The position numbers were made by a program, and so were the translations under genes. This document shows positions 42,701 through 61,766 of a stretch of DNA of 64,000 bases, in pieces; the first letter of the stretch is position 1, and every line of letters begins with the position of its first letter. The stretch lies in the NCBI GenBank assembly GCA_018001635.1, contig JAGNHS010000006.1:2905-66904 (forward strand), given 5' to 3'. The notes under the pieces were generated by a model that was given only the letters and a program-made list of their open reading frames with translations, did no database searches and had not been told where the DNA came from. Origin of the DNA: Pseudomonadota bacterium (GTDB taxonomy: Bacteria > Bdellovibrionota > UBA2428).

Positions 42701-42969
42701 CAGCTGCCGACAGGGTAACGATTCACCGCCGCCATTCCAGCCACTGAAGACGGATTGAGTAATTCTACAATATGTTTTTTTATGCCATTTAGAAGACCTA
42801 ATTTATCGGCGATGTCATGAACTTCAGCTAAACGTTTATGATATTCCGCTGCGTCAGGTTGGTTGTGCGAGTCCGCTATTAAGTGCTCTTGGCAGCTGAA
42901 AGAGTGTTGGGCAAAGATGAAGCTAAGGATACTGAGAAACTTTAGAGTGTTTAATCTAATAAAGCTCAT
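39760..42969 (-). CDS. Fusion protein with an N-terminal SpoVR/YcgB-family domain and a C-terminal YeaH/YhbH (DUF444, vWA-like) domain, preceded by a signal-peptide-like N-terminus
   Basis: SpoVR motifs LAHVYGHNFFHVNSYF, NEGFAMLVEEII and NPYFLGLEIWREI. An acidic/Gly linker (DGDGEGDGEPDEGSDEDSD...GCGGGD) is followed by ELPNL and the DUF444 vWA core HVTIISDLSGSMMGY...KYKNIVFTYV...FYKVQLGGGT. Its start overlaps the upstream stop (ATGA). Confidence 0.7.
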   Translation of the reverse strand: MSFIRLNTLKFLSILSFIFAQHSFSCQEHLIADSHNQPDAAEYHKRLAEVHDIADKLGLLNGIKKHIVELLNPSSVAGMAAVNRYPVGSWSDGAAIFNQARNLQGVLEFVLSGHSTQHSYYLSNLSPILFMNILAHVYGHNFFHVNSYFKHKTSHDRVGVSVELDELMTDIGKYEDPREVEDWFFHLLSLEMAQDVWSGAYVEPKDLKADRPIGFNQWRDGLVQTSQSSGKQTVSLLQAFVSELPSDIAPWKLEMAKKFEKMNRFIPGAVNTKLLNEGFAMLVEEIIFSHHPDYARSFGDAAEIGMLAGRVARPSLTNPYFLGLEIWREIREEFNRRPENIKLEGMERDQKFINYAREIINNPNLGNNVMFIFSKLTDQWIKNRHLALVKKFSNEEKFQLAQQGAPLPQDYMDGTLYQVITHDPERIRYQVQQDWNLSYAYPRVVWNNLHNQTDDVAKLSVSNEMGYFTPINRKTVAPTLLSWAKILRKTVELEATLIIDVIKEVTWDWFSFKPKMKVIGYRLARAKIRVNPEGQINVSTLKKMEILDSNSSWEEGIEIHQTPSFREWTPEAAEKSTVDKEIYGHLFKNLREFLIDYHIDQTEVPKGIVSTLKNKEGIEIDPLGSIYKNINDVVGSMALNEVPHGILKALNRYHQKVAERFLAAFSKAANNGGLTRTGSGYSLKVLPEVGGIVFDRRAQNGIKRLLSKVNDLDNNPFVTDDGLLLQPQGLKDKEYYVEKSSNQPGDGNDGDGEGDGEPDEGSDEDSDTGKPSNGQGCGGGDPSYIEIPLELYQSLIKDEVELPNLRPLKGQTEQMRKIFVGSQPLDRKPYVAKKIVRDAIKLGLGVINLREEEGEDTSELDPFEVGVDFLQKKNIHSKNHRQQPDPDISAHVTIISDLSGSMMGYVEKMKEIIFNIRSLLKHKYKNIVFTYVAFDGVAYDFDEAHENDFYKVQLGGGTDYGVGAAKALEVQAKFPDSEYDRFTFMFGDLIADLSDSAQSNIEKVMGNSRFFGTINFTAYSEEDALGQFLIGKAKMDNFVGYQLISEEEEKVNVVKLLRKLFKTENKKKK

Positions 42970-48900: not shown

Positions 48901-49844
48901 TCGAGGACATCCACTAAGGGAGGATTAGTGAGCACACTCAGTTTAAGAGATTTTCCAGAATTAATATCGATGTCTCTATATCGACTTGTAAAAGTTTTTT
49001 TATCGATTTTGGAATTGGGGTCGAGATAATCCAATAAAAGCTTCACTTTTTTTAACCAAATATCAACGAGAGGGTGCTCTTTGTCGTTTTTCCATTTTTC
49101 ATAAACTGTTTTTAGAAGATAGGGGGAGTATGCTTTGTCGGGTGAATAGTCGGCAAAAAGTCTTATGAGTCCTTGGTCTGTGGGGTGAAATCTATAATCG
49201 AGGAGCACCGGTTCAGATATTTTAAATTCACCTGTTTCGATGCCTCCGTTTTTAACAATAGCAAAAGTGATTCCGTCAGAACCCATTTGAGGAATGCCTT
49301 GCTTAACTGAGATGATATACATACACGAGTTGTCTACAGGGTATTGTACAATCGTGATGTCTTTGGGGTCCTTTATGTTTTCAAGATAAATTTTACGTTT
49401 CGTGAGAGGATCGATGATTGGGACGGGAGTGGCAAATTTGTTGGGTATTTTTTGGGATTCATTAGCGCCAATAATGAGTGAGCTGGCTGCTTTTTTTTCT
49501 GAAGTGTTTTTGTTAACGATATAAATTTGTCCATCGAGAATGACTAAGGCTTCTTGATTTCCTTGTTGAGTGACAGGAGCTAAGAGTACAAAAGTTTCAG
49601 CGGATCGCTTATTCACGCCAAGCACTTCTTTTTGAATCAGTGGAGTAGAGTTTTCAGCTCCAGTATTAAAAAAATAAATTCCCTTTTTTTTGCCATTGAG
49701 TTCAGTGTTGAATACCAACTCGTATAAGGCTCTTGCATTATGAGGATGTGGAAAAATGAAAGACCCCTCGTCGGCCGCGCGTAAGGCTCCACTTTGTCCG
49801 ACAAGTAGGGCGGCAAGGGCAATATGTTTGAGGAGGTGTCTCAT
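42966..49844 (-). CDS. Giant (2292 aa) secreted protein with a Clp/Hsp100-like AAA+ ATPase domain and a poly-acidic low-complexity region
   Basis: Signal peptide (LKHIALAALLVGQSGALRA). Walker A FFGETSLGKT and Walker B GFILIDDLHKA, with ...LFVTINPASN resembling the Clp D2 core. A long Asp/Glu/Ser tract (TEDDEEDEEENDG...). The remainder is unassigned. Confidence 0.6.
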   Translation of the reverse strand: MRHLLKHIALAALLVGQSGALRAADEGSFIFPHPHNARALYELVFNTELNGKKKGIYFFNTGAENSTPLIQKEVLGVNKRSAETFVLLAPVTQQGNQEALVILDGQIYIVNKNTSEKKAASSLIIGANESQKIPNKFATPVPIIDPLTKRKIYLENIKDPKDITIVQYPVDNSCMYIISVKQGIPQMGSDGITFAIVKNGGIETGEFKISEPVLLDYRFHPTDQGLIRLFADYSPDKAYSPYLLKTVYEKWKNDKEHPLVDIWLKKVKLLLDYLDPNSKIDKKTFTSRYRDIDINSGKSLKLSVLTNPPLVDVLEKRPEPQVSNMAISGVTQFFEPLGDGLSFQYEGTPPQKGRLSWDQDNKKFLTRSLSNDSSVEVLFSLDKSILLRLKSRNRSIQVVEVQEQFTKLKFDPFNNDNVIILESFDLPQPKIEKRKSAPIFGFSDNTPDDELISGAVYKKHYLILSGKTQYYPGGGTFAIELEESMGHVSVKDMQVISNTYSFSKEELELRIKNVENLGLVFDNSTPRVGPKTYRSDSQKNPGGLRVTAYLNVSESDPKKKTVFLQAKNEFPVIMSPHVVYREFNNDKQSQLNEKTGVYLEDTHSADRHETPADSTSHLNKDDSSFIPGQLIYSNSSKTKTKKNSRTSISKDSIRAVLYTTDIHLPLSESSKQLEAFKIHLFGMLPNNSQQPNLEGKFNLVTLFNYEGRVGENIKNTFFATRELPFSFSQIEGVRVFKGLRKHANSIYVMLFLKRTRQNTGGVYLLGYEIQSQLKAGKIEFTANNIPDSSGWLTKSYVTANRISDRVLPDGNGALYWVDTPNEDYFSAKYKMRCFNYVSKLVVPSKENINIRLKERIVQENEKEGRLFWIGSRWSISSSTGLRSINSTLSKALDGNEAEQAKTYKDLNFGPGGKGPLYPLLDEYLDSLVVDPSKKGKKTFLVVSDEDYANFYNLMLLKLDNKKTGWSLKWKPGGNDFELYFFDHQSDAREMRKELKLASESTTQNVLFAGSDELLQTFILETDGKNSEDSDSASSFSILDYASSDSERQMGIETVSANNDPESKASNKKTEDDEEDEEENDGRNKGTKHKHEEDEPEVVETNQGGDELDEESFSESARSTSSDHIYDPSSPHKLSGLFLLATEGKGRHLKDLSSPSDSFKSVTTVVLTTPKKLLKLQEAHPHEFKAGLVDKGLFEIDARFLTSQWYNWPPNTPRSTPDIRRMSVSALTSDDLQVFPNLRPILSELSKKPEKPKHRIIVVPENIKKLMLRFLMTHWSSRYNVALERDTNGNPNLNTSWNFRNPHLSIFRYPQGGKVHQEEIFGNLDAMRRLSQENSVVLLADASDLLRNERPLVGEKSDIKPFRISDPAAMKKTELLAETASEAQSSANSPNEGSDKDGNSSSRSDIDKPNTIFPHIMWWLASEGRRIQPKLKKQWRLRDEATPSVSEIIVATPEQIEDLEKDLGLESHFMDLQKDFEIVRLEYPSVEHRSNILRNLFYREDIRTLNYSFRYNGNESGAERNSAPFLNITKFLANRIEAVANSLNQEPIEAFVRSYSIFRKSLVDDHKLRRSRVIDENYVERFLAKVFPIPLNYKSLEPEDVLHKIKDTARAAVDLTKLGYAGQLDLKERIFRLILSQTQGSDSSKQIPSSAVFFGETSLGKTFFFEKLIQLLDIKVYDFNRPLDENAQAFFLKVEDLVDKKEEATGKSLYVEDALKHLDNFLSLPLGYRGFILIDDLHKAKNANVLSRVMSYIQNLLNNNLVRVSRLEDKMTIEIPVRNISLFVTINPASNREIRDQYIDDASSIESQIIAALSQVEGAQYEPSILARFSDLINFGDFPREAKASGLISKIRARSLQELTLSNKLILVNPHILSEIAQIFPKAHARNFLMPVTNSLFTEAKDDSLAPAPLYYVTSSKSDTHDSKDLKDDWNVDEWYNDDHQVEEGGSTINSTTLRNQIKKHVVVKPVTFDNLRGRLDFAEFNSNSFRINFYNHFINSIQNHKFFRASLQNEMYYLKPLITGVYLNLRNRPELRFWNLDLSPVRLKINNHSGFLSEFQDLMDAHHNSKPVIPFKLPASSVLESDSLDDFLKIKGSIQEQEGQREYISRLIINIESLMKNLFYKFYQSNGFQESNSQAWLDSMKNSKEVREEFASTTDKIRDLFQMFVSNQGFLNPKLKEVQKGLHRNLSSSDLAIIFLWAIDQAIANLPWDNANVFMMKMLEEIIDEPALSTRAEFAEFAFKTEESPLSPLTVEYVTQLLEGNDLIRDKVPELERNHAGFGDRCEYLLIPEEKK

Positions 49845-49862
49845 TTTCCAGCTTTACTCAGT

Positions 49863-52463
49863 TTATTTTTTGTCGTGCTTGTTGACGTGCTCCACTAAGA
49901 ATCGAAGCGCTTGCACGAAAGATCTCTCGTTGTATCCGTATCTTTCCAAGTTGCTGAGTATCTTTTGCCCAGCCGTTTGAGTTTCAGTGGCCACGGATCT
50001 TCCTTGCATGAAATCAAGGAGGCTTTGGTAGCTGTTAGTTTTTAAGTTCTGACTCATCAACCAATCAGAAATAGCTTTTTCAAGCTTAATCCACATGGGG
50101 AGGGGTGATCCGTCAGTATTATGAAGCGCTAAATTGGCAACATAAGCTTGGAGATCTGGGGGATTAAGATCGTCGCCCCAGCGTTTTCTAAAGGCCTTTT
50201 TAATTTCAGTGAGTCTATCAAAATTGATGGCAGTAGGTATGTCGCCTTTTGATTTAGTGTGGTGTGTGGCTTTAGAGTCTTGCGCTAAGTGTGAAATTTC
50301 CGAAGTGACTGCATCGTAAATACTGCGCACTTTATTGGTGTCGTTAGCAATAATCGAGTTCACATCGTTCATGAGCTTAGGAAGTATGAGCTCTGCTGCA
50401 ATTCTCTCGGCGAGTTCGAGCCATTTAGCGTATTCAGGGCGTTCCTTTTGAAATTGGTTTTCGTGAAGGGTGAGTCTAAAGGCGTCTTTTATTTCTACAG
50501 GAGTTAAAGTGTTTGAATGTCCGGGAGATTGTGCGAGTTCAAGGGCCTTTTTAAAGACCACTTCAATATCGCGTTGTCCAATTCCATTATCGCCTTCATT
50601 GAGAAGAGCTTCCTTTGAGAATTCCGTTAAAGCCGCTAGAACTTCTTGATTCTCAACAACTTCATCTCCTGTGATAATTCGAAGACGGTCAATTGGGTCG
50701 GTGAACCATCTTAGATCGGGACGTGTGATACGAGTGAGAATGTTGGCGTCTTTGAGTTTATCGATATTTGTTTCAAGCGAAGAGCCTGCGGCAATGCATC
50801 CCAAGAAATATAGCGAATAGGGTGAAATATCGACAAAGGAACTTTTGCTAGCGCTGATTTCAGCTGGCGAATCAATTTTAACTCTTACGGCGTAATGACC
50901 CTCAGGGCCTGAAATATTTCCATTGCTGTCGGGTTCTGCATAAATTTCCTTGATGAGGGGTGAATTTGAGCTTTCGTTTAGTGTGGCGAGATTTTTGTGT
51001 TCTGTTGAATCCAATTTGCGTGCACTAAAGTTATTGGGTTTGAGAGTGAGTAAAAGTGCAAGCTCTCTCCATCTTGGATGGAGGAGGTTTTTCATGGCAA
51101 TATGTTGTAAGCGAGATAGAAGAGCGTCGGTGTCCATGCGTTTTTTGGAATCTGCAATGGAACTATAGTTTGCAGAAAACACATTAAAGGTGTCCATCGC
51201 TAAAGCGGGGGTGTCTGAACCTTTGGCGACGCCTTCTTGTAATACAGAAAGTAGGAAGTGGAGAACTACGGGGTCGTTTCGAGTAACGTCGTCCCAAATG
51301 ATCATGGAGCCATCGTTTTGAGAGAGGGGTCCGTTAAAATGGAAGCCGAGAGTGTTATTGGCGCCTTTAATTCTTGCGGCTACGTTGGCAGTTCCAATTA
51401 AAGAAGAGGTGTCGGGGGCTTCTTCCATAGGACGAATAATGGGATCGCGATTGGAGGCAAGGCTGATGTCTTTTCTTGCAATACCCACAAAATTTTCAAA
51501 TATGGCTAAATAGTCAGCTACGGTGAGAGAAGTTGCTTTTGTGGCTTTTAAAATATGTTTTTTATAAAAAGGAATGAGAAATTCTCTTAGGATATCTTCT
51601 GCATGAGAATCGCGGGCGACAGCTTGGCCAGGATTTCTTTCGTAGAAATCACCAATGTCGAAACCTAACATTTTAGAGGCGGTGGCACCTAGAGTTTTTG
51701 CGTAAGCCACTTTGAGTTCGGTGGGAAGTAGGCTGAAGGGACTTCTTTGAAGGCTTGTAACATTAAGGCGATCGCTATCTTTGACTAAGAATTGATCGAG
51801 TCTTTGACCTAATGAAGGATCAGTTTGTTTTATCATGTCCAAATTTTTCCAAAAATAGGTGTATTCCTTGAATAGAGGATCTCGAACTGAGAGGTGGGCT
51901 AGGGCATATCGAATGACGTATTCGAGAACTGTTTTTCCAGTTCCTGGAGGTCCCTTTAAAAGTGGTCCTTTACTTCCGCGCATACCTTGTGCGGCTTCGG
52001 AGATGATTTTTGCCAAGCTCGAGCTAGCTTCATATTGGCCTACGAGAAAAAGTCCGCCAGTTGCGGGCAAGGCATCATGATAGACTTTGGGAACATTATA
52101 ATATTGGTGCTTGTAGACGGGGTCTAAAACTCGGCGATATCCAAAATTATTCAAGACCGCTAATTGTTTTTGATCAGCATTCATTAAAAGTAAGGGATGC
52201 TCTTTTATGAGATCGGGTAATTTTGAAAAAGGATACTCTACGGCGTATTCTTCGGTGCCGGCAATAGCTAGTTGAGCCACTGTTTCGGGCACTAAAAGAG
52301 TTGAGCATAATTTTGGATCAACATGAAAACTTTTAGGAGTGCTAGTTGTTGATTTAGCCGCGGATGCTTTTTTGCTTTCTGCTGCAAATGAAAAATTTTC
52401 TAAGCTCATTAAAAAAATAACGACGTGTGTAATTTTTAGAATTGTAGGTAGGCTTTTTCTCAT
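49863..52463 (-). CDS. Divergent PrkA/YeaG-like AAA+ serine protein kinase homolog with a signal-peptide-like N-terminus
   Basis: Walker A LLKGPPGTGKT. The region LIGTANVAARIKG...GPLSQNDGSMIIWDD...VLHFLLSVLQEGVA parallels PrkA LVGKVD...GALCRANQGIMEFVE...LHPLLTATQEGNY. The C-terminus GYNERSFVQALRFL parallels PrkA GYTRKQVRLLCEW. Homology assignment is from recollection of YeaG. Confidence 0.55.
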   Translation of the reverse strand: MRKSLPTILKITHVVIFLMSLENFSFAAESKKASAAKSTTSTPKSFHVDPKLCSTLLVPETVAQLAIAGTEEYAVEYPFSKLPDLIKEHPLLLMNADQKQLAVLNNFGYRRVLDPVYKHQYYNVPKVYHDALPATGGLFLVGQYEASSSLAKIISEAAQGMRGSKGPLLKGPPGTGKTVLEYVIRYALAHLSVRDPLFKEYTYFWKNLDMIKQTDPSLGQRLDQFLVKDSDRLNVTSLQRSPFSLLPTELKVAYAKTLGATASKMLGFDIGDFYERNPGQAVARDSHAEDILREFLIPFYKKHILKATKATSLTVADYLAIFENFVGIARKDISLASNRDPIIRPMEEAPDTSSLIGTANVAARIKGANNTLGFHFNGPLSQNDGSMIIWDDVTRNDPVVLHFLLSVLQEGVAKGSDTPALAMDTFNVFSANYSSIADSKKRMDTDALLSRLQHIAMKNLLHPRWRELALLLTLKPNNFSARKLDSTEHKNLATLNESSNSPLIKEIYAEPDSNGNISGPEGHYAVRVKIDSPAEISASKSSFVDISPYSLYFLGCIAAGSSLETNIDKLKDANILTRITRPDLRWFTDPIDRLRIITGDEVVENQEVLAALTEFSKEALLNEGDNGIGQRDIEVVFKKALELAQSPGHSNTLTPVEIKDAFRLTLHENQFQKERPEYAKWLELAERIAAELILPKLMNDVNSIIANDTNKVRSIYDAVTSEISHLAQDSKATHHTKSKGDIPTAINFDRLTEIKKAFRKRWGDDLNPPDLQAYVANLALHNTDGSPLPMWIKLEKAISDWLMSQNLKTNSYQSLLDFMQGRSVATETQTAGQKILSNLERYGYNERSFVQALRFLVEHVNKHDKK

Positions 52464-52608: not shown

Positions 52609-53148
52609 ATGCGAGTCGTTTTTGTTTTTTCTTTTTTATGGGCTGCGCTTCTTTATTCTGCCACAACGAGTCAAGATTCTGCGAGCACTATATATTTTAA
52701 GGTGCTCAAGGGTTTTGATGTAGAAAAAAAGAAATCAAATGCTGAAGTAGACGCATTAGTCGGCAAAAAAATTCGCATTCCTGGATTTATGGTTCCTCTT
52801 GAATATAAATCTCAAAAGGTGACTGAGTTTTTGTTAGTACAGTCTCTTCCCTCTTGCATTCACGTACCTCCCCCCTCTCCTAATCAAACCATTATGGTGA
52901 AGATGAAGGATAAAAAAACAGTGTCTTTGAGTATGGATCCCATTTGGGTGACAGGAATCTTAAAATTGGTCAAACAAGACAAATATACATTTGGTGATGC
53001 CGTTTATAGCATTGAGGGCGAGTCTTCTGCTCCTGTAGATTCAAAAGACTTTAATAAAGTGGGTTTATTTATGGGAGATCAGGTGGATATGGCTCCTTTA
53101 GAGGAGAATCCTTTTGGTGGTGAGAGTAAAACTAAGAAAAAGAAATAG
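52609..53148 (+). CDS. DUF3299-like periplasmic protein
   Basis: Signal peptide. The FLLVQSLPSCIHVPPPSPNQ motif is characteristic of DUF3299 (assignment from recollection). Confidence 0.5.
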   Translation: MRVVFVFSFLWAALLYSATTSQDSASTIYFKVLKGFDVEKKKSNAEVDALVGKKIRIPGFMVPLEYKSQKVTEFLLVQSLPSCIHVPPPSPNQTIMVKMKDKKTVSLSMDPIWVTGILKLVKQDKYTFGDAVYSIEGESSAPVDSKDFNKVGLFMGDQVDMAPLEENPFGGESKTKKKK

Positions 53149-53185
53149 AAATAGTTTAAGAAATAGACTTAAAGGGTACGACATT

Positions 53186-53761
53186 ATGAAAAAGCATTTT
53201 TTAAAATCCCTAACATTAAGTTTGTGTCTCTCAATAACTTTGATGGCCAAAGAAAAACATCATCATCATGAGTCTTTGGCAAAGCATATTCACGGTGAAG
53301 CTAATCTCAATTTGATACTTGAAGATGATAAAAAGGGTGAGCTTGAATTTGAGGCCCCTGGCATGGATGTCGTTGGATTTGAATACGATGCCAAAACACC
53401 CAAGGAAAAAGAGAAGCTCAATCAAGTTTTGTCAGAATTTAAAAGCAAAGCTCAAGAATTATTTGTTTTGGATGCAAGTCTAAAATGCGTTTTAACTCCT
53501 AAAGAGGTGGCCTGGGAATCGGAGGATCACGAAGAGCCTGAAGGCGTTCATAGAGATCATGAAAAACAGCCCGTCGCAGAACATCATGCGATTGAAGCTT
53601 CTTACTCTATAAATTGTCAAAAGCCTCTTAAGGGGACTCGTTTTAATTTGGAGCTTTTCAAAAAATTTAAATCGTTAAAAAAAGTCAATTTTCAGTATAT
53701 GGGCAGCAATCTTCAGCGGGCCAGCGAGTTGTCTGCTGGAAAGTCTAGCATTGAGCTCTAA
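53186..53761 (+). CDS. His-rich periplasmic metal-binding protein, ZrgA/DUF2796-like
   Basis: Signal peptide. HHHHE, HIHGE and HRDHEKQPVAEHH tracts. The start is set at the internal ATG at 53186 (MKKHF). Confidence 0.5.
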   Translation: MKKHFLKSLTLSLCLSITLMAKEKHHHHESLAKHIHGEANLNLILEDDKKGELEFEAPGMDVVGFEYDAKTPKEKEKLNQVLSEFKSKAQELFVLDASLKCVLTPKEVAWESEDHEEPEGVHRDHEKQPVAEHHAIEASYSINCQKPLKGTRFNLELFKKFKSLKKVNFQYMGSNLQRASELSAGKSSIEL

Positions 53762-54455
53762 AGAGTCCATTTCTGTAGAGGCTTTAGAGTTTTCATATGT
53801 AAGAAATTCTAAGCCCTTGTTAAAAATTCCTGATTTAAAAATATTAAATGGAGATAGAGTTTTTTTATTTGGCCCAAGTGGTTCCGGAAAAAGCACCTTG
53901 CTTTCATTGCTCACTGGAGTTTTGAAACCTCAAAAAGGCAAGATAACACTTTTAAATAATTTTGAAATATCTCAGGCTAATACTATGGCGGCCGATATTT
54001 TTCGGGGGGCGCATATGGGGTATATATTCCAGCAGTTTAATTTGCTTCCTCATTTAAGCGTGCGCGAAAATATTTCATTAGTTTTGGATTTAAATCCTCT
54101 CCGATTAAATAAAGTTTTAAAATCAAGCACTGTTGAATTGGAAATTAAAAGATTAGCTCAACATTTAGAGATTGAAAATATCTTAGATCGCTCTGCAATG
54201 GCTATTAGTGTTGGTCAGCAACAACGAGTTGCCGCTGCTCGTGCCTTAATTGGTGCTCCGGACATTATTATTGCTGATGAACCCACATCTTCTTTGGATA
54301 CAGATCGCCGAGATCTTTTTATGAAAATGATTCTTAGTGAAGTTGAATTGAGTCAAAGCACTTTGATTTTTGTGAGTCATGATCAAAGTTTGATGAAGCA
54401 TTTTAATAAGCATTTTTCTATTCTGGATTGGAGTGCAGAGGGAGTCGTGCAGTGA
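53751..54455 (+). CDS. ABC transporter ATP-binding protein
   Basis: Walker A GPSGSGKST, Q-loop, signature VGQQQRVAAARAL and Walker B IIIADEPTSSLD. Confidence 0.85.
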   Translation: MSSKESISVEALEFSYVRNSKPLLKIPDLKILNGDRVFLFGPSGSGKSTLLSLLTGVLKPQKGKITLLNNFEISQANTMAADIFRGAHMGYIFQQFNLLPHLSVRENISLVLDLNPLRLNKVLKSSTVELEIKRLAQHLEIENILDRSAMAISVGQQQRVAAARALIGAPDIIIADEPTSSLDTDRRDLFMKMILSEVELSQSTLIFVSHDQSLMKHFNKHFSILDWSAEGVVQ

Positions 54456-55711
54456 TTTGGTGGCGTTTGGCGATTCGTTCTCTTGTCTTTCGTTGGCAGG
54501 CTTCATTACTAACTGTAGTTTCTATGGCGCTCAGTGTGGCGCTTTATTGTTCGGTTGAATCTCTGCGGTTGGGGGTTCATGAAACTTTTGAACAAACTGT
54601 AAGTCAAACAGATCTTATCGTGGGTGCTCGAAGCTCACCTCTGAATATTATTTTATACACCCTTTTTCATATGGGCGATGCTACGAACAATCTTCGTTAT
54701 GAAACTTTTAAGAAAATTTCATCGCATCCCGTAGTTCGATGGAGCATTCCTTTTTCTTTGGGTGATTCCCATCGTGGCTTTAGGGTGATGGCCACTAATG
54801 AAAGTTTTTATGAGTTTTTTCAATTTCGTGGGAATTGGCATATTGAATTTAATTCTGGAACTTTAGCCAAAGATGTTTTCGATGTTGTTTTAGGTTCCGA
54901 AGTGGCGGCCCGCTTGAATTACAAACTGAATGACAGAGTTGTGATTGCCCATGGAATGAGTTCAGAGAAGGGTGCTTTTTCAGAGCACAGTGATAAACCA
55001 TTTCATGTGGTGGGTATTTTGAAGCGCACAGGGACACCGGTCGATCGGGCTCTTTTTATAACTCTTGAAGGAATGGAAGCTATTCATATTAATTGGAAGG
55101 ATGGCTCAGCAGATGAATCTTCAACTCCTAAAGCGATAACAAAAGATCAGATTAAGGTGACACAAATCACATCTTTTCTATTGGGGCTGAAGTCGCGTGT
55201 TGCAGTTTTACATATGCAAAGGATGATTCAAAATTATGCGGATGAGTCTCTTGAGGCGGCTATTCCTGGTTTTGTACTGAGCCGCTTTTGGGAAAGTCTT
55301 GGAGCCTTTGAGCGCACTTTAAGTTTAATGACTCTAGCTATCTTTATAGTGGGGCTTATAGGTATGTTGATTGCATTGCTGACGTCTTTGGATCAGAGGC
55401 GAAGAGAAATGGCTGTCTTGAGGGCTTTGGGTTCTAGGGCTTTTCAAATATTTATTTTACTTTTAAGCGAAGCTTATTTTTTGATGGCTTCTTCTATTGT
55501 TGCAGGTTTGGGTCTCTATTCTCTTTTGTTCTTTCTCTTTCGTGATTTTGTTGAGTCAAAATATGGTGTGGTTTTAGTCTTGTGGCCCTTTGATTCTGAG
55601 AATCTCTATATTCTTTTAGGTCTCTTTGTGGCGGGAACTATCGCGGCATTAATACCTGCAGCTGTTGCCTACCTTAGAAGTGTTTCAGATGGATTGCAGC
55701 AAAGAACTTAG
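54428..55711 (+). CDS. ABC transporter permease, FtsX/MacB-like. A likely GTG start at 54452 overlaps the ATPase stop.
   Basis: N-terminal TM segment, a large periplasmic domain and three C-terminal TM helices, the typical FtsX-like architecture. Confidence 0.7.
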   Translation: MECRGSRAVIWWRLAIRSLVFRWQASLLTVVSMALSVALYCSVESLRLGVHETFEQTVSQTDLIVGARSSPLNIILYTLFHMGDATNNLRYETFKKISSHPVVRWSIPFSLGDSHRGFRVMATNESFYEFFQFRGNWHIEFNSGTLAKDVFDVVLGSEVAARLNYKLNDRVVIAHGMSSEKGAFSEHSDKPFHVVGILKRTGTPVDRALFITLEGMEAIHINWKDGSADESSTPKAITKDQIKVTQITSFLLGLKSRVAVLHMQRMIQNYADESLEAAIPGFVLSRFWESLGAFERTLSLMTLAIFIVGLIGMLIALLTSLDQRRREMAVLRALGSRAFQIFILLLSEAYFLMASSIVAGLGLYSLLFFLFRDFVESKYGVVLVLWPFDSENLYILLGLFVAGTIAALIPAAVAYLRSVSDGLQQRT

Positions 55712-55865: not shown

Positions 55866-57881
55866 ATGAATGTGGGGAGATTGTTGAATTTTAACTTTGT
55901 ATTGCAAGAAAAGTCATTTTCATTTTTAAAAAAAATTGTTTTTAACATCTCCTGGTGTTTATTGTTGACGCTTTCAGCCTCTTCTTTAACCTATTATTGT
56001 CAGGATGGAGTTAATTGCTATTTGTCCGATGGAGCCACTACAACTTTTCATAATTATGGCACAGACTGGAAGGCTAGTGCTAGCACTGGTTATGCCGGAG
56101 ACATCGGTGTCATTTCGACTGACGGAAGCATAAGAGTGACGTCTTCGGTGGCTTTAGCTGGTGCAGTGGCTTCTATTCAGTTCACTTCAGGTTCTTATAT
56201 AGTTGAATTGATATCGAGCGGAGGTCATGGTTCTGCGTTTCAACATGCAGCACATATGTGGGGTGAATGTGGTTTTGCCACTGAATGTGATAATCCAACG
56301 GAAGCAGGTTCGTTGGATGATGACTTCACTAAAGATCCCAGTACTGGGTTAGCCAAAAAAGAAACTTGGGGCGATCCAGTAAAAGCAAATTTATTGTCAA
56401 CGAAAGGGTTTCATGGGGTTGAAGGTTCTACAGATGGCTCGTCTAGTAGCCGAATTCATACATTTGAAGTTTTGCAAAATCCAGATACGGGTGCACAAAA
56501 TAGAATTCACTCTATAGTAAATATGGCTAATTTTGTAGCCCCCGATGGACGATCGGAATATAATTGGTGCAAGCCAAAACATTTATTGAATGTGCCTTCA
56601 ACTCAACCCATGGGGGATTGGTTGGAGAAATGGGTTGATGTTGGTGTGAATTTAAACGGCACACTATACCCTGATATCATTAGAACCAAATCTCGTTTTG
56701 TACCAGGTAGAGGAGCTCCGTTTGCAGATAATCGATTGATTGCTTATTTGAATGCTGGAGTTTTTACATGGCAAGCATTGTATAATCCTCGCACTGATAA
56801 ATATGTTGACCTTTTAGCTATAAGTCGTGACCTTGGATATTATGATTATTTATATAAATTAAATAAAGATTTTCAGGATACAGCACTTTGGCTTTCAACT
56901 GCTGTAGCAAGCGGAGTCAGTGCGGCAGATATTGAACTAGGAAAATCTTATCAAGAAACTCGCATCAAGCAATTAACGGATCTTCATCAAGCTTTCGAAA
57001 CTGAAAAATATGAGCGTATGAAAAAGGCGACACCTCCATCGGAGCTTGATAATTTTATTTATCAACCCTGGGTTGCTATAGCTACCAATCCTGATGGAAA
57101 TGTTGCAATGGGAATGATGGTTATGCCAACGTCGAGAGACGTGAATCATGTTATTTGGCAAGTGTCTTATACCGACGCCTCTTGGCAGATTGCCAATCCC
57201 AACTACCCTTATAGTTATGTTACTTTGAATGCACATGATTTTTACCGTAATGTAAAAAAAGATCAGGAATATATTATGAATTCCTATGCATTTGTTGGAA
57301 CTTTTGATCGTGTTAAAACCTTAGCTAAAGCAGTCTGCAAATCAAAAAATCTTTGCGGTTCAGATACAAGTTTATTGCAAAAACCCCCTGAAGACCCGAG
57401 CTTTTTTACCTCAGATAGTAACACTCTACCAGTTTGTCGGTACTATAGTGTAGATACGGGAAGATATACCGAACTTTCTTACGGGCGATATGGAAGTGGA
57501 AGTTCTTGGTTTGGGGGAAATTGGTATATTGGAATACCTGGAGATATTTACGCTGGAGGTTATTCCATTGCTAAATTGGCAAATCCTGATGATGGTAAAT
57601 TCGCCATTGTTGGTGCAGATATTCCACTTTATCGTTGTCTTTATGGTCATGCAAAAAGTGGGACTTATTTTACATTTGTTTCTAAAGATGAAAAATGCGA
57701 AGGCCAAGTGAAGCAAGATATTTTAGGATATGGCTGGTCCTCCAATACGGGAGGGTTAAAAGAGTTGGCTAGGTGCTTTAGGTCAACGCCTTCACAGACT
57801 TCGATATTAACTACTAACCCCGGATCTGATTGTTCTGGATGGAGTGAAATTATACATTTAGGGGTGTGGGCTATACCATGA
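55866..57881 (+). CDS. Large hypothetical secreted protein (671 aa) heading the pilin-like gene cluster
   Basis: Hydrophobic N-terminus, Cys pairs and Gly/Tyr/Trp-rich repeats. Its stop overlaps the next start (ATGA). Confidence 0.45.
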   Translation: MNVGRLLNFNFVLQEKSFSFLKKIVFNISWCLLLTLSASSLTYYCQDGVNCYLSDGATTTFHNYGTDWKASASTGYAGDIGVISTDGSIRVTSSVALAGAVASIQFTSGSYIVELISSGGHGSAFQHAAHMWGECGFATECDNPTEAGSLDDDFTKDPSTGLAKKETWGDPVKANLLSTKGFHGVEGSTDGSSSSRIHTFEVLQNPDTGAQNRIHSIVNMANFVAPDGRSEYNWCKPKHLLNVPSTQPMGDWLEKWVDVGVNLNGTLYPDIIRTKSRFVPGRGAPFADNRLIAYLNAGVFTWQALYNPRTDKYVDLLAISRDLGYYDYLYKLNKDFQDTALWLSTAVASGVSAADIELGKSYQETRIKQLTDLHQAFETEKYERMKKATPPSELDNFIYQPWVAIATNPDGNVAMGMMVMPTSRDVNHVIWQVSYTDASWQIANPNYPYSYVTLNAHDFYRNVKKDQEYIMNSYAFVGTFDRVKTLAKAVCKSKNLCGSDTSLLQKPPEDPSFFTSDSNTLPVCRYYSVDTGRYTELSYGRYGSGSSWFGGNWYIGIPGDIYAGGYSIAKLANPDDGKFAIVGADIPLYRCLYGHAKSGTYFTFVSKDEKCEGQVKQDILGYGWSSNTGGLKELARCFRSTPSQTSILTTNPGSDCSGWSEIIHLGVWAIP

Positions 57882-58525
57882 AATTAAAAACTAATTATTA
57901 CGGATTTACTATTGTAGAAGTTGTTATGAGTGTTGGAATCGGGGCTATTGCTTTGGTTCTTTTGGCGACGATCATAAACAATGGAATGAAATCTTTAAAT
58001 AAGATTGAAGTCAGTCAAGACCGAGATGAGGCTTTACGTTTAGCAAGGTTGGTATTATTGCAGCCAGGCCAATGTCGATGCAATTTTAAGGAATTGGTGT
58101 TGTCTGATACGGCACCAACACCAGTTAGCGCTATATCTCTATTTGCCAACACTCAAACGTGTGCCAATCCTACGGTAATTTTAAAAATAGGGCAAAAAGT
58201 GGGACAAGCAACTAAAAATATTTCTTCGATGGAATTACGTAAAATGGCTAATTTTGGAATTAAATCTACTTTAGCAGAGTTAAATGTTTTAATTTCTGGG
58301 GAATCTAATCCTGATACAGTTTTGTTCGGCGTTGACTATGGACCGTCCGGTATGAAAATTGCTCGATGTTACTTGGATCACCCCGCTACAGTCTCTAGAA
58401 TATGTAATACTTTTGTTAGCTCTACAGTCAACTCAAGCACTTGCCAAACAGGATGTACGCCCTTTGTTACTTCAGATGCCGGTGGATTGAAGTCAGGAAT
58501 TTGCTTGGAAGCTGCTACATTTTAA
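57878..58525 (+). CDS. Type IV pilin-like protein with a prepilin-type N-terminal cleavage/methylation domain
   Basis: MKLKTNYYG|FTIVEVVMSVGIGAIALVLLATII matches the class III signal peptide (G followed by F-T-[IL]-[IV]-E). Confidence 0.65.
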   Translation: MKLKTNYYGFTIVEVVMSVGIGAIALVLLATIINNGMKSLNKIEVSQDRDEALRLARLVLLQPGQCRCNFKELVLSDTAPTPVSAISLFANTQTCANPTVILKIGQKVGQATKNISSMELRKMANFGIKSTLAELNVLISGESNPDTVLFGVDYGPSGMKIARCYLDHPATVSRICNTFVSSTVNSSTCQTGCTPFVTSDAGGLKSGICLEAATF

Positions 58526-58533
58526 AAAATATT

Positions 58534-59181
58534 ATGAGAATGAAAAATAATTCAGGATCAATTCTAATGGCGGCGATTTTTACGGTAATATTTTTAGGAA
58601 TAATTGGATACACATTGCCCATTATTATTAAAAATTTTTCCACTAATAGATTAAACGAGGTCAAGGTACAGGCAGTAAAAGATTTGCATAGGCAACTCGT
58701 TTTGATCAGTACCTTAAGATCCAGTAAAGATTGTTGGATTAAGGATGTTCCAGATTCAAGCATTTTAAATTGGACCGATTTAAAAATTTACTCAGACAAT
58801 ACGTGTAGCTCATTTCAAAAATTATGGGAAGTTGGAAAAAATATTGGTTACTTAAAGTTAGAAAAAATCCAATGGAAGTTTAATTCTTTAGTCAATGGAT
58901 TTAGGGAAGGTAAATTAGTGCTTTCAGTATCTTCGAGCGCGTCCCCAAACTTGACCAAAACAATTGAATTAGATCTTGTTGCAAGGGTGGTGAGTGCTAA
59001 GTTTGTGTCTCTAAAATTAAAAAAAGCTCCTGATGGAGGTGGTGTTTGTCGAAGCTTCGCGCAAAATGCTTCAAGCCCTTTTACAATTTCTTGCCCCTCT
59101 GAATGCTTTCCATTTGTCACGCAAACAATAAACTCTGGTTTGAGTAATAAATTTTTTCGTGGACTGTGTTTAAGGTTATAG
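58534..59181 (+). CDS. Minor pilin/PilX-like protein
   Basis: N-terminus SGSILMAAIFTVIFLGIIG resembles the PilX N-terminal hydrophobic domain. Start placed at the internal ATG at 58534. Confidence 0.4.
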   Translation: MRMKNNSGSILMAAIFTVIFLGIIGYTLPIIIKNFSTNRLNEVKVQAVKDLHRQLVLISTLRSSKDCWIKDVPDSSILNWTDLKIYSDNTCSSFQKLWEVGKNIGYLKLEKIQWKFNSLVNGFREGKLVLSVSSSASPNLTKTIELDLVARVVSAKFVSLKLKKAPDGGGVCRSFAQNASSPFTISCPSECFPFVTQTINSGLSNKFFRGLCLRL

Positions 59182-59263
59182 GTGCTACGCGTTAGTGTTT
59201 GTGTTGATGCTTCAGTCTACTTTAAGAAAGATCAGATAAACTGTAATTGAAATTTAGATTAAA

Positions 59264-60385
59264 ATGATAAAAAAAATAGTCAGAAAAAAAAATGCATTTA
59301 CAATAGTACAAGTTATGGTCGCCCTTGCTCTGGCGGGTCTGTTGATGCTCAGTGTTTCTCAAATTGTTAGTTATATAAATAATGCGAGCGTTCAATCGAA
59401 GTCTACAGCGACACTTAATTTTCTTAAAAGCCAAGCTATTTCTATTCAAAAAGATCTTCCTTCATGGTTAGAAAAACTTCGGCTATCAAATTCATTATTA
59501 GCAAATTGCATTCCTTCTGGAAGTGTCACTCTTTTTTCTTGCCCGCCAGGAGGTGTTAATGACCCTCAAATCACGGCATTGTTTTCAGGACAAATTATTA
59601 CAAGTGTTGCATTAGTCGACTTTTTTCAAAAACCCTTAACAGGTACTGAGACTAGTCCACTTTATTTGGATATTTCTGGATCTCCTTGTATGACTACATC
59701 TTGTCAAAAGTTCTCACTTGTTGGATATATGGCTCGCGAAAATACATCTGGTAATCCAGGATCTATTGAATTTGCCTATAAAATCGTAACTTTTAAAACT
59801 CAGGTGAATGAAGTGCCAACAAAAGAAGTTATTGTAAGAATCCCTGTAGGAAAAAACTGGACAGACATGTCGGGACAATGTCCTCCAGCTGGATTCCCAA
59901 AACGAACATTAATGACTGGTATAGATTCTAATAGAATTCCAATTTGTATCGAGCCACCTCCTATTCCTCTGAGTTGTCCTCCTAACCATATATTGGCTCC
60001 CAATGGAAGTGGTGGCTTAATGTGTGCACTAATTCCACTTCCTAAAATAGTATGTACTGTGAGATCTTCTGATTTGTCGGGATTAGGATTTCCGGGCGCT
60101 ACTTGCCAAGCGGGTGAAGTATTAACAGGAGGAGGTTTTAAAGCTCACAATCCTAATGTTGCCTCGGAAACTTTTAGTAATTGTATAAAGACTTATAAAA
60201 CTCCTACAGCAGTAACTTCTGAAACAATTGGTTGGCCACATTCGATGGAGCCCATTGGTAATCAAATATGGGTAAATTTTTGGAGAGGACAGGTTGAACC
60301 AAAGGCTGATGGTGTTGGAAATACTGTTCACGAATATGATACTTGTGGAATTTCTTATGCCATTTGTTGTAAAATCTCACATTAA
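59264..60385 (+). CDS. Pilin-like protein (prepilin-type N-terminus variant), Cys-rich
   Basis: KKNA|FTIVQVMVALALAGLLML is pilin-like, but with Ala at -1 and Gln at +5. At least 18 Cys residues. Confidence 0.5.
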   Translation: MIKKIVRKKNAFTIVQVMVALALAGLLMLSVSQIVSYINNASVQSKSTATLNFLKSQAISIQKDLPSWLEKLRLSNSLLANCIPSGSVTLFSCPPGGVNDPQITALFSGQIITSVALVDFFQKPLTGTETSPLYLDISGSPCMTTSCQKFSLVGYMARENTSGNPGSIEFAYKIVTFKTQVNEVPTKEVIVRIPVGKNWTDMSGQCPPAGFPKRTLMTGIDSNRIPICIEPPPIPLSCPPNHILAPNGSGGLMCALIPLPKIVCTVRSSDLSGLGFPGATCQAGEVLTGGGFKAHNPNVASETFSNCIKTYKTPTAVTSETIGWPHSMEPIGNQIWVNFWRGQVEPKADGVGNTVHEYDTCGISYAICCKISH

Positions 60386-60470: not shown

Positions 60471-61766
60471 CTAATTAATTTTGTTAGTCTCTTCTACATA
60501 GGAGAGAATGCTCTTTTTAATTTCATTCACATCATCGCTGTCGACAACGTTGTCTAGGGGGTTGCCGGCAATTTCTTTAGTATTAATGTTGCTTTCCTTT
60601 ATGTAAATTTCCCAAATGCTTTGATTTTCAGCGCGGTCTCTATCGATGGACTTTCCTAGTTGATTGATTTTCAGTAAACCAAGTGAGCCTGTGTGATAGA
60701 AAAAGGCATTGTCTTTTTCGTTTTGTGTTTCGTTTGTAAGATCGCCAAGATTTTTAATTCCCATAGATAATATGGTTTTATGTTTTACAAAATCGGCCGC
60801 ACCTTCAGCGTATTCAAGGTGCCGTAGCATCTTATAAGTTTCGGGATATTTTGATTTAAGCTCTTTGAGGCACCACTCAATTTTGCTGAGAGACATTTTT
60901 TCTTCTTCGGGATTGGGTTGCGGGATGGATGTGATTTTAAAAACTTCTTTTTTATAAAGTTGGAGTAACTTGAAAACCTCAGGTTTGTTGTTCACTTCTT
61001 TTAATGTGTCTTCATCGGAATAATTTTCAGTAGTTTTACCAAAAGGTGGATTTTCTTCTCTGTTTCTGTCGCCTTCTATTACATGAAAGCTTTCATGGAT
61101 AAATGTTTCAAAAAAAATATTTCCTGATCCCTTTGGAAATTGTTTTTGATAGAAACTTTCGTTGGGAAAAAGTTTGCGTATAGGAGTTTCGTCTGGGGAG
61201 TAAATCGGCATTGTCTCAGCGCCAAGAGCTACGCGTAGAGGATGTTTTTTGTCGAAGTAATTTTCGTTAAAGGGGAGTGGAACAGGGAATCTCGCCCCTT
61301 GAAGATAAGTGAAGCCTAGAATCTCTCCCGTTCCTTGTTGCGAATCAATGTTTTGAGTGTTGATATTTTTTAATTCGTAGACTTTTCGGCCCATTCTTTG
61401 AGAGAGTTCTGGATTTTCCTTCATTCCAGCAACGGGTTCTTTATCCCAATTGAAAATATAAAGTGTAGCTATACCTTTTTCAGCTTTTCCAACTAAGCCA
61501 ATGGGACTTTTGCTGAGATTAAATTCTTTAAGGGTAGGGCCCATGTAGGCTTCGAGCGGGTGTTCTTGGTGTTCTTTAAGAAGATTTAGAAAATCTTCGA
61601 CTTTTTGATTTTCGTCTTTATTTAAATTCGGAATGATAGATTTATTGTCTGAAGTTTCTTGGCGGGGAGTGCTTTCATTTACATTTTTTGAGCTTTTGTT
61701 TGCGGTGTGTTCAGCCCAAGCGCTTATGTTAAGGATCAGTGAAACAAGTATGGCAAATAGACACAT
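60471..61766 (-). CDS. Secreted protein with an HEXXH motif (putative Zn-metallopeptidase)
   Basis: Signal peptide. FIHESFHVIEG contains HEXXH. No further family assignment. Confidence 0.4.
   Translation of the reverse strand: MCLFAILVSLILNISAWAEHTANKSSKNVNESTPRQETSDNKSIIPNLNKDENQKVEDFLNLLKEHQEHPLEAYMGPTLKEFNLSKSPIGLVGKAEKGIATLYIFNWDKEPVAGMKENPELSQRMGRKVYELKNINTQNIDSQQGTGEILGFTYLQGARFPVPLPFNENYFDKKHPLRVALGAETMPIYSPDETPIRKLFPNESFYQKQFPKGSGNIFFETFIHESFHVIEGDRNREENPPFGKTTENYSDEDTLKEVNNKPEVFKLLQLYKKEVFKITSIPQPNPEEEKMSLSKIEWCLKELKSKYPETYKMLRHLEYAEGAADFVKHKTILSMGIKNLGDLTNETQNEKDNAFFYHTGSLGLLKINQLGKSIDRDRAENQSIWEIYIKESNINTKEIAGNPLDNVVDSDDVNEIKKSILSYVEETNKIN

What the first reader, a model, noticed from the sequence alone, without database searches (positions are those of the whole stretch)
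55866..60385. Cluster of three pilin-like genes behind a 671-aa secreted protein
57878..58525 has a canonical type IV prepilin leader (G|FTIVE). 58534..59181 has a PilX-like hydrophobic N-terminus. 59264..60385 is a 373-aa Cys-rich pilin-like protein with atypical -1 Ala and +5 Gln. The first three genes overlap or abut, consistent with an operon. This may encode minor pilins plus a tip-associated protein. It is relevant to predation if the organism is Bdellovibrio-like. The region looks visibly more AT-rich than the housekeeping genes.
Basis: partly seen in the sequence, partly recalled or inferred. Interest (0 to 1): 0.55.

Follow-up and report, generated by a model that had tools for sequence, protein, structure and literature searches.

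The report
Orphan pilin-like genes with secreted partner
A four-gene block in an uncultured, probably Bdellovibrio-related bacterium encodes three type IV pilin-like proteins behind a secreted sugar-enzyme-like protein that is not the usual pilus-tip protein PilY1; this is an unusual but unproven variant of a pilus-tip or secretion module.

Summary
The four ORFs exist exactly as described. A strict prepilin-leader pattern hits only genes B (G|FTIVE) and D (A|FTIVQ) in all six frames of the 64-kb window. It hits nothing in 100 random sequences.

Gene C is a diverged tandem paralogue of B. It has lost Phe1 and Glu5, as tip pilins PilX and GspK lack Glu5. D has a 47%-identical orthologue in a Bdellovibrionota MAG with leader G|FSIVQ, so Gln5 is conserved. 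Synonymous changes show the leader is translated.

The 671-aa protein A is not PilY1-like. Its core models as a beta-supersandwich, the fold of galactose mutarotase and YidC-P1, with weak GH174 similarity. It belongs to an undescribed secreted family with no Pfam or PDB sequence match. Its tail is DUF5648-like. That family usually has no pilin neighbours and is T9SS cargo in Bacteroidota. Three low-GC relatives do place it beside pilin-like genes or an orphan TadA-like ATPase.

Most likely this is an accessory minor-pilin module with a glycan-binding or glycan-cleaving partner, served by machinery encoded elsewhere. The composition deviation is mild. No assembly genes lie in the window. Function is inferred only.

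The parts
55866..57881 (+). Gene A: 671-aa secreted non-pilin protein. It has a signal peptide, a beta-supersandwich 'X domain' and a DUF5648-like tail.
   Evidence: ORF. A good Shine-Dalgarno sequence (GGTGAGA) precedes the ATG. No Pfam or NCBIfam family. 37 representative homologues by exhaustive phmmer.
55866..55985 (+). N-terminal export signal of A, about aa 1-40: a long n-region, KK, the hydrophobic core IVFNISWCLLLTL, then SASS.
   Evidence: Read from the sequence. AF2 predicts a helix at aa 18-36. Homologues carry signal peptides, a lipobox (P0002, LASC) or a T9SS sorting domain. Inferred; not run through SignalP.
56103..57365 (+). X domain of A, about aa 80-500: an undescribed secreted family. 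Invariant residues are S103, H121, G122, Q126, C141, P144, T145 and G148 (GGHGxxxQ ... ECxNPTEAG ... DD).
   Evidence: Alignment A1. AF2 pLDDT is mostly 80-97 in the conserved strands. Best Foldseek PDB matches are GH174 endo-1,3-fucanase, Slr1438, the YidC P1 domain and galactose mutarotase. No PDB or Pfam sequence hit.
57522..57827 (+). DUF5648-like Cys-containing repeats in the tail of A, about aa 553-654 (PLYRC...F.F.S...CEG...LGYGW).
   Evidence: phmmer links aa 553-647 and 587-654 to P0033 and P0037. P0037 scores 47.5 bits on PF18885 (DUF5648) over the same region. The link is transitive; A itself gives no Pfam hit. AF2 confidence is low here.
57878..58525 (+). Gene B: 215-aa type IV pilin-like protein. 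Leader MKLKTNYYG|FTIVE; 8 Cys.
   Evidence: N_methyl 18.5 bits, E = 0.0014, below the cut-off. Its start overlaps A's stop (ATGA).
58534..59181 (+). Gene C: 215-aa diverged paralogue of B with a degenerate leader (MRMKNNSG|SILMA; no Phe1, no Glu5). An alternative start at 58567 gives 204 aa.
   Evidence: Smith-Waterman against shuffles gives z = 11.6 for the full length and z = 6.7 without the first 35 aa. B and C share the C-terminal motif C..F..C...C.PFVT..GL..G.CL. No family hit.
59264..60385 (+). Gene D: 373-aa Cys-rich (14 Cys) pilin-like protein. Leader MIKKIVRKKNA|FTIVQ, with Gln at +5.
   Evidence: A 47%-identical orthologue in Bdellovibrionota MAG JTS-AC59 has the leader MKG|FSIVQ, and almost all Cys are conserved. 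Five synonymous and one conservative difference in the 9 leader codons show that the region is translated. The best PDB match is sub-threshold: Geobacter PilA-N, aligned in register.
60488..60517 (+). Terminator-like hairpin plus T-run about 100 nt after D's stop, inside the 3' end of the convergent gene. Probable end of the transcription unit.
   Evidence: This is a consensus match only.

Best explanation
The block is an accessory minor-pilin module of a type IV filament system (T4aP- or T2SS-type) whose assembly machinery is encoded elsewhere.

B (Glu5), its paralogue C (no Glu5) and the large Cys-rich D (Gln5) would be inserted in the inner membrane. The prepilin peptidase would trim them. 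They would then assemble through their N-terminal helices into a small priming or tip complex. Subunits without Glu5 would sit at the apex, as proposed for PilX and GspK.

A is made from the same transcript, translationally coupled to B, and exported by Sec. It is the non-pilin partner: a glycan-binding or glycan-cleaving protein that the filament displays at its tip or pushes out of the cell. It would play the role that PilY1, T2SS substrates or the T4b-secreted CofJ/TcpF play elsewhere.

Shown here: the ORFs, the leaders, the B/C paralogy, the D orthologue, A's fold class and family, and gene linkage in relatives.

Inferred: processing, assembly, the partnership between A and the pilins, and the ligand.
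For: - The prepilin-type leaders are unique to B and D in the 64 kb, with 0 hits in 100 random sequences.
- All three leaders are short and basic and are followed by about 20 hydrophobic residues.
- B and C are paralogues.
- D's leader, including Gln5, is conserved at 47% overall identity and is under purifying selection.
- A and B overlap by ATGA, and the B-C gap is 8 nt.
- Gene linkage recurs in relatives. In L003 an A homologue (29% identity) is followed by a 363-aa G|FSIIE pilin (N_methyl 21.3 bits, at threshold) and an overlapping G|FSIMA protein without Glu5.
- In MAG JTS-AC59 two A-family genes lie within about 5 kb of the D orthologue, although the flanking genes differ from the window's. 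They lie next to an orphan TadA/VirB11-like ATPase, as in L005.
- A's family is extracellular in other phyla: it is T9SS cargo in Bacteroidota.
[quoted passage not shown] Three-pilin tip complexes with a Glu5-less subunit and bulky modular pilins exist in S. sanguinis (PMC9934059). Cys-rich interchangeable three-pilin 'Tips' exist in predators (PMC12075869).
Against: - No curated pilin HMM reaches its threshold for B, C or D, and none of the FimU/PilV/W/X, GspH/I/J/K or TadE/F/G families is hit.
- Two of the three subunits lack Glu5, whereas known complexes have one.
- The D model is unusable (pLDDT 36.5), so a pilin fold is not shown.
- There are no assembly genes in the window.
- 79 of 80 genome loci of the A family have no pilin-like neighbour (JTS-AC59 is the exception), and none of the 80 metagenome loci has one. 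A is therefore not intrinsically a pilus protein.
- The pilins next to A homologues in L003 are not detectably homologous to B, C or D beyond the leader.
- D may be a separate transcription unit, given the 82-nt gap.
Confidence: 0.45

Rival explanations
1. The pilin-like proteins are peptidase-processed, membrane-anchored or periplasmic/surface proteins that never enter a filament. This would resemble the many 'prepilin-type N-terminal cleavage/methylation domain' proteins of Planctomycetes and Verrucomicrobia. A is an independent secreted enzyme or lectin, and the genes are neighbours only because they serve the same extracellular process.
For: - The globular parts of B, C and D match no pilin family or structure.
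- NCBIfam's best, sub-threshold hit for B is a Verrucomicrobia/Chthoniobacter cassette protein, over the N-terminus only.
- C and D lack Glu5, the residue needed for filament incorporation.
- A's family normally occurs without pilins.
Against: - The ATGA coupling of A and B.
- Linkage of A-family genes with pilin-like genes or a TadA-like ATPase recurs in three further low-GC loci.
- One canonical Glu5 subunit plus Glu5-less partners is exactly the make-up of known tip complexes (PMC7541494, PMC9934059).
Confidence: 0.2
2. This is a dedicated T2SS-like export device. B, C and D are pseudopilins of a short periplasmic piston, and A is simply its secreted substrate, released into the medium rather than displayed.
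For: - Substrate genes often sit next to T2SS genes (own knowledge).
- A has a Sec signal, and its family is exported by whichever system the host has, for example T9SS in Bacteroidota.
- GspK-type subunits lack Glu5 and contact substrates (PMC7541494).
Against: - No GspG/H/I/J/K HMM passes. gspI scores 14.4 bits against a cut-off of 44.
- There are three genes rather than five pseudopilin genes.
- No gspC-F or gspL-O genes are nearby.
- D, at 373 aa with 14 Cys, is far larger than the usual pseudopilins.
Confidence: 0.15
3. The cluster is a horizontally acquired island, as its AT-richness suggests, with no integrated function in the host.
For: - GC3 of all four genes is below the window mean, and D is at z = -2.95.
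- B, C and D are orphans: D has only two lineages among 5.8 billion proteins.
Against: - Overall GC lies within 2 sd of the window's genes.
- The synonymous-codon likelihood is normal.
- No tRNA, integrase or repeat boundary was noticed among the ORFs scanned.
- The D orthologue and A homologues sit in a related MAG in a chromosomal context.
Confidence: 0.05

Closest known systems
T4aP minor-pilin/PilY1 priming and tip complex (FimU-PilV-PilW-PilX-PilY1) and the T2SS GspH-I-J-K tip
   Same: It is an operon of several low-abundance pilin-like proteins with class III leaders. One canonical Glu5 subunit sits with Glu5-less subunits. A large non-pilin protein with a type I signal peptide is encoded in the same operon (PMC7541494).
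   Different: There are three pilin-like genes, not four. None matches the FimU/PilV/W/X or GspH-K models. The non-pilin partner is a beta-supersandwich plus DUF5648-like protein, not a PilY1 beta-propeller. The partner is encoded first in the operon. Two subunits lack Glu5.
Streptococcus sanguinis PilA-PilB-PilC tip complex with modular pilins (PMC9934059)
   Same: Three pilins are encoded together. One has a degenerate leader without Glu5 that prediction tools miss. One or more are unusually large, with extra C-terminal modules. The function is glycan binding.
   Different: There the lectin module is grafted onto a pilin. Here the candidate glycan-binding module is a separate Sec-exported protein. 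There is no sequence similarity. The host here is diderm and probably predatory.
Myxococcus Kil (Tad) 'Tip' complexes KilL/M/N and their Bdellovibrio and Bradymonas analogues (PMC12075869)
   Same: These are three-gene minor-pilin sets scattered away from the machinery genes. They are rich in predicted disulfides and include one large pilin with a variable distal domain. They occur in predatory lineages. Relatives of this locus sit next to an orphan TadA-like ATPase.
   Different: The leaders here are the GFTxxE (T4a/T2SS) type, not the TadE type. There is no TadE/F/G HMM hit. The Kil Tips are not described with an additional secreted non-pilin protein.
Type IVb pilus-secreted colonisation factors (ETEC CofJ with the minor pilin CofB; V. 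cholerae TcpF) (own knowledge, not checked here)
   Same: A Sec-exported soluble protein is encoded in the pilin operon. It depends on, and docks to, a tip minor pilin for export or display.
   Different: No sequence or fold relation was tested. T4b leaders are long, whereas those here are short T4a-like leaders.
Galactose-mutarotase-like beta-supersandwich carbohydrate-active proteins (GH174 endo-1,3-fucanase 8jd7/9k1g, aldose epimerases, GH65 N-domains) and DUF5648 (PF18885)
   Same: A's core gives Foldseek E-values of 2.5e-6 to 5e-4 against these, and 1e-13 to 1e-5 against chlorovirus and GH65 proteins in BFVD. A's tail is linked to DUF5648 through P0037.
   Different: TM-scores are low: 0.30 normalised to the query and 0.38-0.58 to the targets. 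Identity is 8-10%. No sequence-level hit appears in PDB or Pfam. The invariant GGHG/Q/ECxNPTEAG/DD signature is not that of any described family.

Membership tests
Type IV pilin-like proteins (class III signal peptide; Pfam PF07963 N_methyl, TIGR02532) | Short basic leader ending in Gly (or Ala/Ser) at -1 | tested here: met
   B ends ...YYG|, D ends ...KKNA| (its orthologue ends MKG|) and C ends ...NNSG|.
Type IV pilin-like proteins (class III signal peptide; Pfam PF07963 N_methyl, TIGR02532) | Phe (or Met) at +1 and Glu at +5 of the mature protein | tested here: inconclusive
   B has F1 and E5, so it meets the feature. D has F1 but Q5, and Q5 is conserved in the orthologue. C has S1 and A5. 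Glu5-less minor pilins are known, for example PilX, GspK and S. sanguinis PilA (PMC7541494, PMC9934059).
Type IV pilin-like proteins (class III signal peptide; Pfam PF07963 N_methyl, TIGR02532) | About 20 hydrophobic residues (alpha1N) directly after the cleavage site | tested here: met
   At least 17 of 21 residues are hydrophobic in B and D. C reads SILMAAIFTVIFLGIIGYTLPIII.
Type IV pilin-like proteins (class III signal peptide; Pfam PF07963 N_methyl, TIGR02532) | Score at or above the curated HMM threshold | tested here: not met
   On N_methyl, B scores 18.5 and D 13.9 against a cut-off of 21.2. On TIGR02532, B scores 11.7 against 16.3. C has no hit.
Type IV pilin-like proteins (class III signal peptide; Pfam PF07963 N_methyl, TIGR02532) | Pilin fold: a long N-terminal helix packed on an antiparallel beta-sheet | tested here: inconclusive
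   The AF2 model of D shows a helix at aa 12-64 followed by strands, but mean pLDDT is 36.5.
Type IV pilin-like proteins (class III signal peptide; Pfam PF07963 N_methyl, TIGR02532) | Cleavage and N-methylation by a prepilin peptidase, and incorporation into a filament | not testable with these tools
   This needs experiment. No pilD is in the window.
PilY1 / PilC tip adhesin (C-terminal beta-propeller, Pfam PF05567) | PilY1 C-terminal beta-propeller domain | tested here: not met
   A has no Pfam hit at E <= 1. The AF2 core is a beta-sandwich whose best PDB matches are GH174, YidC-P1 and mutarotases, with no propeller.
[quoted passage not shown] | Match to the family HMMs, and a four-gene set | tested here: not met
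   Only N-terminal, sub-threshold hits were found: gspI 14.4 against a cut-off of 44, PRK10557 21 against 120, and ComGE 12 against 49. There are three genes, not four.
Tad minor pilins TadE/TadF/TadG (Kil 'Tip' complexes) | TadE-type N-terminal motif or HMM | tested here: not met
   No TadE-like Pfam or NCBIfam hit for B, C or D. The leaders are of the GFTxxE type.
DUF5648 (PF18885), for the tail of A | Match to PF18885 | tested here: inconclusive
   A itself has no hit. A's aa 587-654 aligns to P0037, whose matching region scores 47.5 bits on PF18885. P0002 scores 15.6 bits.
Glycoside hydrolase family GH174 | Sequence membership and catalytic residues | tested here: not met
   The profile of the A family finds no PDB sequence at E <= 0.1, and GH174 structures are in the PDB. 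The fold match is weak only (TM 0.30-0.42, 8-10% identity). Catalytic residues were not mapped.

The most novel reading that the evidence does not exclude
In a Bdellovibrionota lineage, a previously undescribed secreted carbohydrate-active-like domain family has been recruited as the cargo or tip effector of a type IV filament. Recruitment would be through dedicated, lineage-specific minor pilins, including a conserved Gln5 modular pilin with a Cys-rich distal domain. This would be a new kind of interchangeable 'predation tip' that recognises or breaches prey envelope glycans. It would be analogous to, but unrelated in sequence to, the Myxococcus Kil Tips and PilY1.
Probability: 0.2. Interest if true: 0.7.

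Novelty: new variant of a known kind. Interest (0 to 1): 0.4.

Why it matters
If the module works as proposed, it adds a third solution to how type IV filaments are functionalised. The known solutions are PilY1-type tip adhesins and modular pilins. Here a separate Sec-exported glycan-binding or glycan-cleaving protein would be coupled to orphan minor pilins.

It also gives a first functional handle on an uncharacterised secreted domain family. That family is present in more than 130 species, among them actinomycetes, Planctomycetota, Opitutales and Bacteroidota.

In predatory Bdellovibrionota, pili (T4aP and Tad) are needed for prey attachment and entry. Such a tip module would therefore be a candidate prey-recognition or envelope-breaching device.

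The conserved Gln5 in the D family is a natural test case for the role of residue 5 in pilin assembly.

Tried and rejected
- **PilY1 hypothesis for A.** Rejected by Pfam and by the structure model.
- **Sequence searches for D.** Only its own species and one MAG turn up among 5.8 billion proteins. The JGI metagenome scan gave pattern matches but no relatives.
- **PDB sequence searches.** For B, C, D and the A family there was nothing significant.
- **AF2 of D with a 2-sequence alignment.** pLDDT was 36.5, so it was not used for a fold search.
- **Homology between B/C and D, or between the window's pilins and those of L003, beyond the leader.** None was found by BLASTP, shuffle tests or hhalign.
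- **Similarity of A's tail to the Cys-rich tails of B, C and D.** Not significant: best z = 3.2, with 4 of 300 shuffles as good.
- **General link between the A family and pilins.** Rejected: 79 of 80 genome loci and all 80 metagenome loci have no pilin-like neighbour.
- **Sigma-54 promoter upstream of A or D.** No match better than chance. The sigma-70 and terminator scans were at background, except for one hairpin after D.
- **Riboswitch or other Rfam RNA.** None.
- **Origin of the assemblies.** No paper mentions the accessions.
- **One wasted look-up.** The longest-ORF translation for 10043-12979 is not on record.


Full report
**1. What is in the sequence**

- A: 55866-57881, 671 aa.
- B: 57878-58525, 215 aa.
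- C: 58534-59181, 215 aa. The public gene call starts at 58567 and gives 204 aa.
- D: 59264-60385, 373 aa.

A's stop overlaps B's start (ATGA at 57878-57881). B and C are 8 nt apart. C and D are 82 nt apart. About 100 nt after D there is one terminator-like hairpin, facing a convergent gene. The block sits between an ABC-transporter operon and purine-biosynthesis genes, on an 80-kb contig of assembly GCA_020049755.1.

**2. Are the pilin signatures more than chance?**

I searched for a strict class III leader pattern: [GAS][FMILVYW][ST]x x[EQ], then at least 17 of 21 hydrophobic residues, within 40 residues of a start codon, in an ORF of at least 90 aa. It hits only B (MKLKTNYYG|FTIVE) and D (MIKKIVRKKNA|FTIVQ) in all six frames of the 64 kb. 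It hits nothing in 100 Markov-2 random sequences.

The curated HMMs see both leaders, but below threshold. N_methyl scores 18.5 bits for B and 13.9 bits for D, against a cut-off of 21.2. The NCBIfam hits are N-terminal and weak.

C matches no family. It is nevertheless a diverged paralogue of B: same length, colinear from Met1, Smith-Waterman z = 11.6 against shuffles, and z = 6.7 without the first 35 residues. B and C also share a Cys motif at the C-terminus, C..F..C...C.PFVT..GL..G.CL. C is therefore pilin-derived but has lost Phe1 and Glu5 (G|SILMA).

D has a 47%-identical orthologue in a Bdellovibrionota MAG, JTS-AC59, at L006 11853-13010. Its leader is MKG|FSIVQ and almost all cysteines are conserved. 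Gln5 is therefore a family trait, not a sequencing oddity.

One public annotation starts D at Met18 (P0003), which would remove the leader. However, the nine leader codons differ between the orthologues by five synonymous changes and one Thr/Ser change. The leader is therefore translated.

D's only PDB echo is Geobacter PilA-N, aligned in register but not significant.

**3. Protein A**

A has no Pfam, NCBIfam or PDB sequence match. The word-indexed search of 5.8 billion proteins found only one distant relative.

Exhaustive phmmer found 37 representatives that share a module around residues 82-160. In the alignment, S103, H121, G122, Q126, C141, P144, T145 and G148 are invariant, giving the signature GGHGxxxQ...ECxNPTEAG...DD.

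With that alignment, AlphaFold2 gives a confident beta-sandwich core at about residues 80-500, with many blocks at pLDDT 85-97. The last 160 residues are poorly defined.

Foldseek places the core in the galactose-mutarotase-like supersandwich class. Hits include GH174 endo-1,3-fucanases (E = 2.5e-6), Slr1438, the YidC periplasmic domain and mutarotases. In the viral library it matches chlorovirus proteins and GH65 enzymes. TM-scores are low (0.3-0.6) and identity is 8-10%. This is therefore a fold class, not a family assignment.

A's tail (about residues 553-654) aligns to proteins whose matching region is DUF5648.

There is no beta-propeller and no PilY1 domain. The PilY1 idea is rejected.

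**4. Where A's family occurs**

A scan of one genome per species found 133 loci. They lie mostly in Nonomuraea and other actinomycetes, Planctomycetota, Opitutales and Bacteroidales. The best hit is the same Bdellovibrionota MAG.

Of the 80 loci retrieved, only that MAG has a pilin-like gene nearby. None of the 80 metagenome loci does. In Bacteroidota the domain is fused to PKD domains and a T9SS sorting signal. The family is thus a general extracellular module that uses whatever export route its host offers.

**5. Linkage in relatives**

Three low-GC loci tie the family to type IV filament parts:
- L003: an A homologue (29% identity, with a lipobox) is followed by a 363-aa G|FSIIE pilin and an overlapping G|FSIMA protein without Glu5.
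- JTS-AC59: two A-family genes lie within about 5 kb of the D orthologue, and the surrounding genes are unrelated to the window's. An orphan TadA/VirB11-like ATPase sits directly upstream.
- L005: the same ATPase-then-A-homologue arrangement.

P0002 and P0005 also share a second repeat domain, so these contigs probably come from related organisms. They are therefore not fully independent samples.

The window itself contains no assembly genes.

**6. Composition**

Cluster genes have GC 0.344-0.395, against 0.398 +/- 0.027 for the 44 window genes. guaB is 0.445 and guaA is 0.424. GC3 is below the mean for all four genes, but only D is an outlier (0.217, z = -2.95). Synonymous-codon likelihood is ordinary. 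The cluster is more AT-rich than guaBA, but this is no evidence of foreign origin.

**7. Most likely mechanism**

Published models supply the frame. Glu5-less PilX and GspK cap a minor-pilin complex that primes the filament and carries PilY1 or a substrate (PMC7541494). S. sanguinis uses three pilins, one with a degenerate Glu5-less leader and two bulky modular ones, to bind glycans (PMC9934059). Predators carry interchangeable, disulfide-rich three-pilin 'Tips' away from the machinery genes (PMC12075869). B. bacteriovorus PilD processes pilins of more than one system (bioRxiv 10.64898/2026.07.08.737194).

On that basis I propose that B, C and D form an accessory tip or priming complex for a filament machine encoded elsewhere. 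A would be its Sec-exported, glycan-directed partner, either displayed or released. Only the gene content, the leaders, the paralogy and orthology, the fold class and the linkage are shown. Everything else is inference. Confidence is about 0.45.

Rivals:
- Processed pilin-like proteins that never polymerise (0.2).
- A dedicated T2SS-like exporter with A as substrate (0.15).
- An acquired island (0.05).

**8. Novelty and verdict**

The kind is known: a minor-pilin cluster with a non-pilin partner. Every specific membership test fails, however. That covers FimU/PilVWX, GspHIJK, TadEFG, PilY1 and GH174.

The pilin globular domains are orphans. D carries a conserved Gln5. The partner belongs to an undescribed family. 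I rate it a new variant of a known kind, interest 0.4. It is worth a follow-up by multimer modelling and a genome-wide machinery inventory, but it is not yet a discovery.

Noticed in passing
window 39760-52463 (minus strand): This is an unusual version of the PrkA/YeaG-YeaH-YcgB stress module. It has an 866-aa weak PrkA-like AAA protein (49863-52463) and a 2292-aa protein with only an AAA_22 trace (42966-49844). It also has a 1069-aa fusion with SpoVR at the N-terminus and DUF444 at the C-terminus (39760-42969).
   Followed up: no
window 60471-61766 (minus strand): This convergent 431-aa gene has a signal peptide and an HExxH motif (FIHESFHVIEG) but no Pfam or NCBIfam hit. It lies next to D in a second assembly of the same organism as well (L004). 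It is a possible novel secreted metalloprotease.
   Followed up: partly
L006 3145-4224 and L005 3233-4366: An orphan 359-377-aa TadA/VirB11-like ATPase (TIGR03819, 273-281 bits, below its cut-off) sits immediately upstream of A-family genes in two low-GC contigs. This recalls the isolated tadA paralogues reported for B. bacteriovorus.
   Followed up: partly
L052 5632-7566, L132 3922-6108, L129 84-2237: In Bacteroidota the same X domain is fused to PKD domains and a T9SS C-terminal sorting domain. In L132 it is followed by a T9SS-tagged peptidyl-arginine deiminase.
   Followed up: partly
L003 1079-3556 and L006 4552-6927: The A homologues P0002 and P0005 carry a second repeated domain of about 110 aa (..VEGWAC..C.TSGV.H.F..) in different positions relative to the X domain. 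It has no Pfam match.
   Followed up: no
window 52609-55711: The operon upstream of the cluster is DUF3299 - ZrgA-like His-rich protein (KEKHHHHE..) - ABC ATPase - MacB/FtsX permease. It is probably a metal (zinc) related exporter or uptake accessory.
   Followed up: no
window 6087-7793 (minus strand): This single 568-aa ORF combines the NADH dehydrogenase 20-kDa (NuoB-type) and 49-kDa (NuoD-type) domains. It is an uncommon fusion.
   Followed up: no
L004 (GCA_020047435.1, contig JAHZTN010052639.1) and L002 (Logan SRR11088468): Near-identical pieces of this bacterium occur in a sister assembly with more than 52,000 contigs and in an independent read set. The organism may therefore be a passenger in a larger (host or community) sequencing project. 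No paper mentions the accessions.
   Followed up: partly
window 24440-25477 and 38143-39591 (minus strand): These ORFs are an S1/P1-type nuclease and a 482-aa protein with an N-acetylmuramoyl-L-alanine amidase domain. They are degradative enzymes that may fit a predatory or scavenging lifestyle.
   Followed up: no
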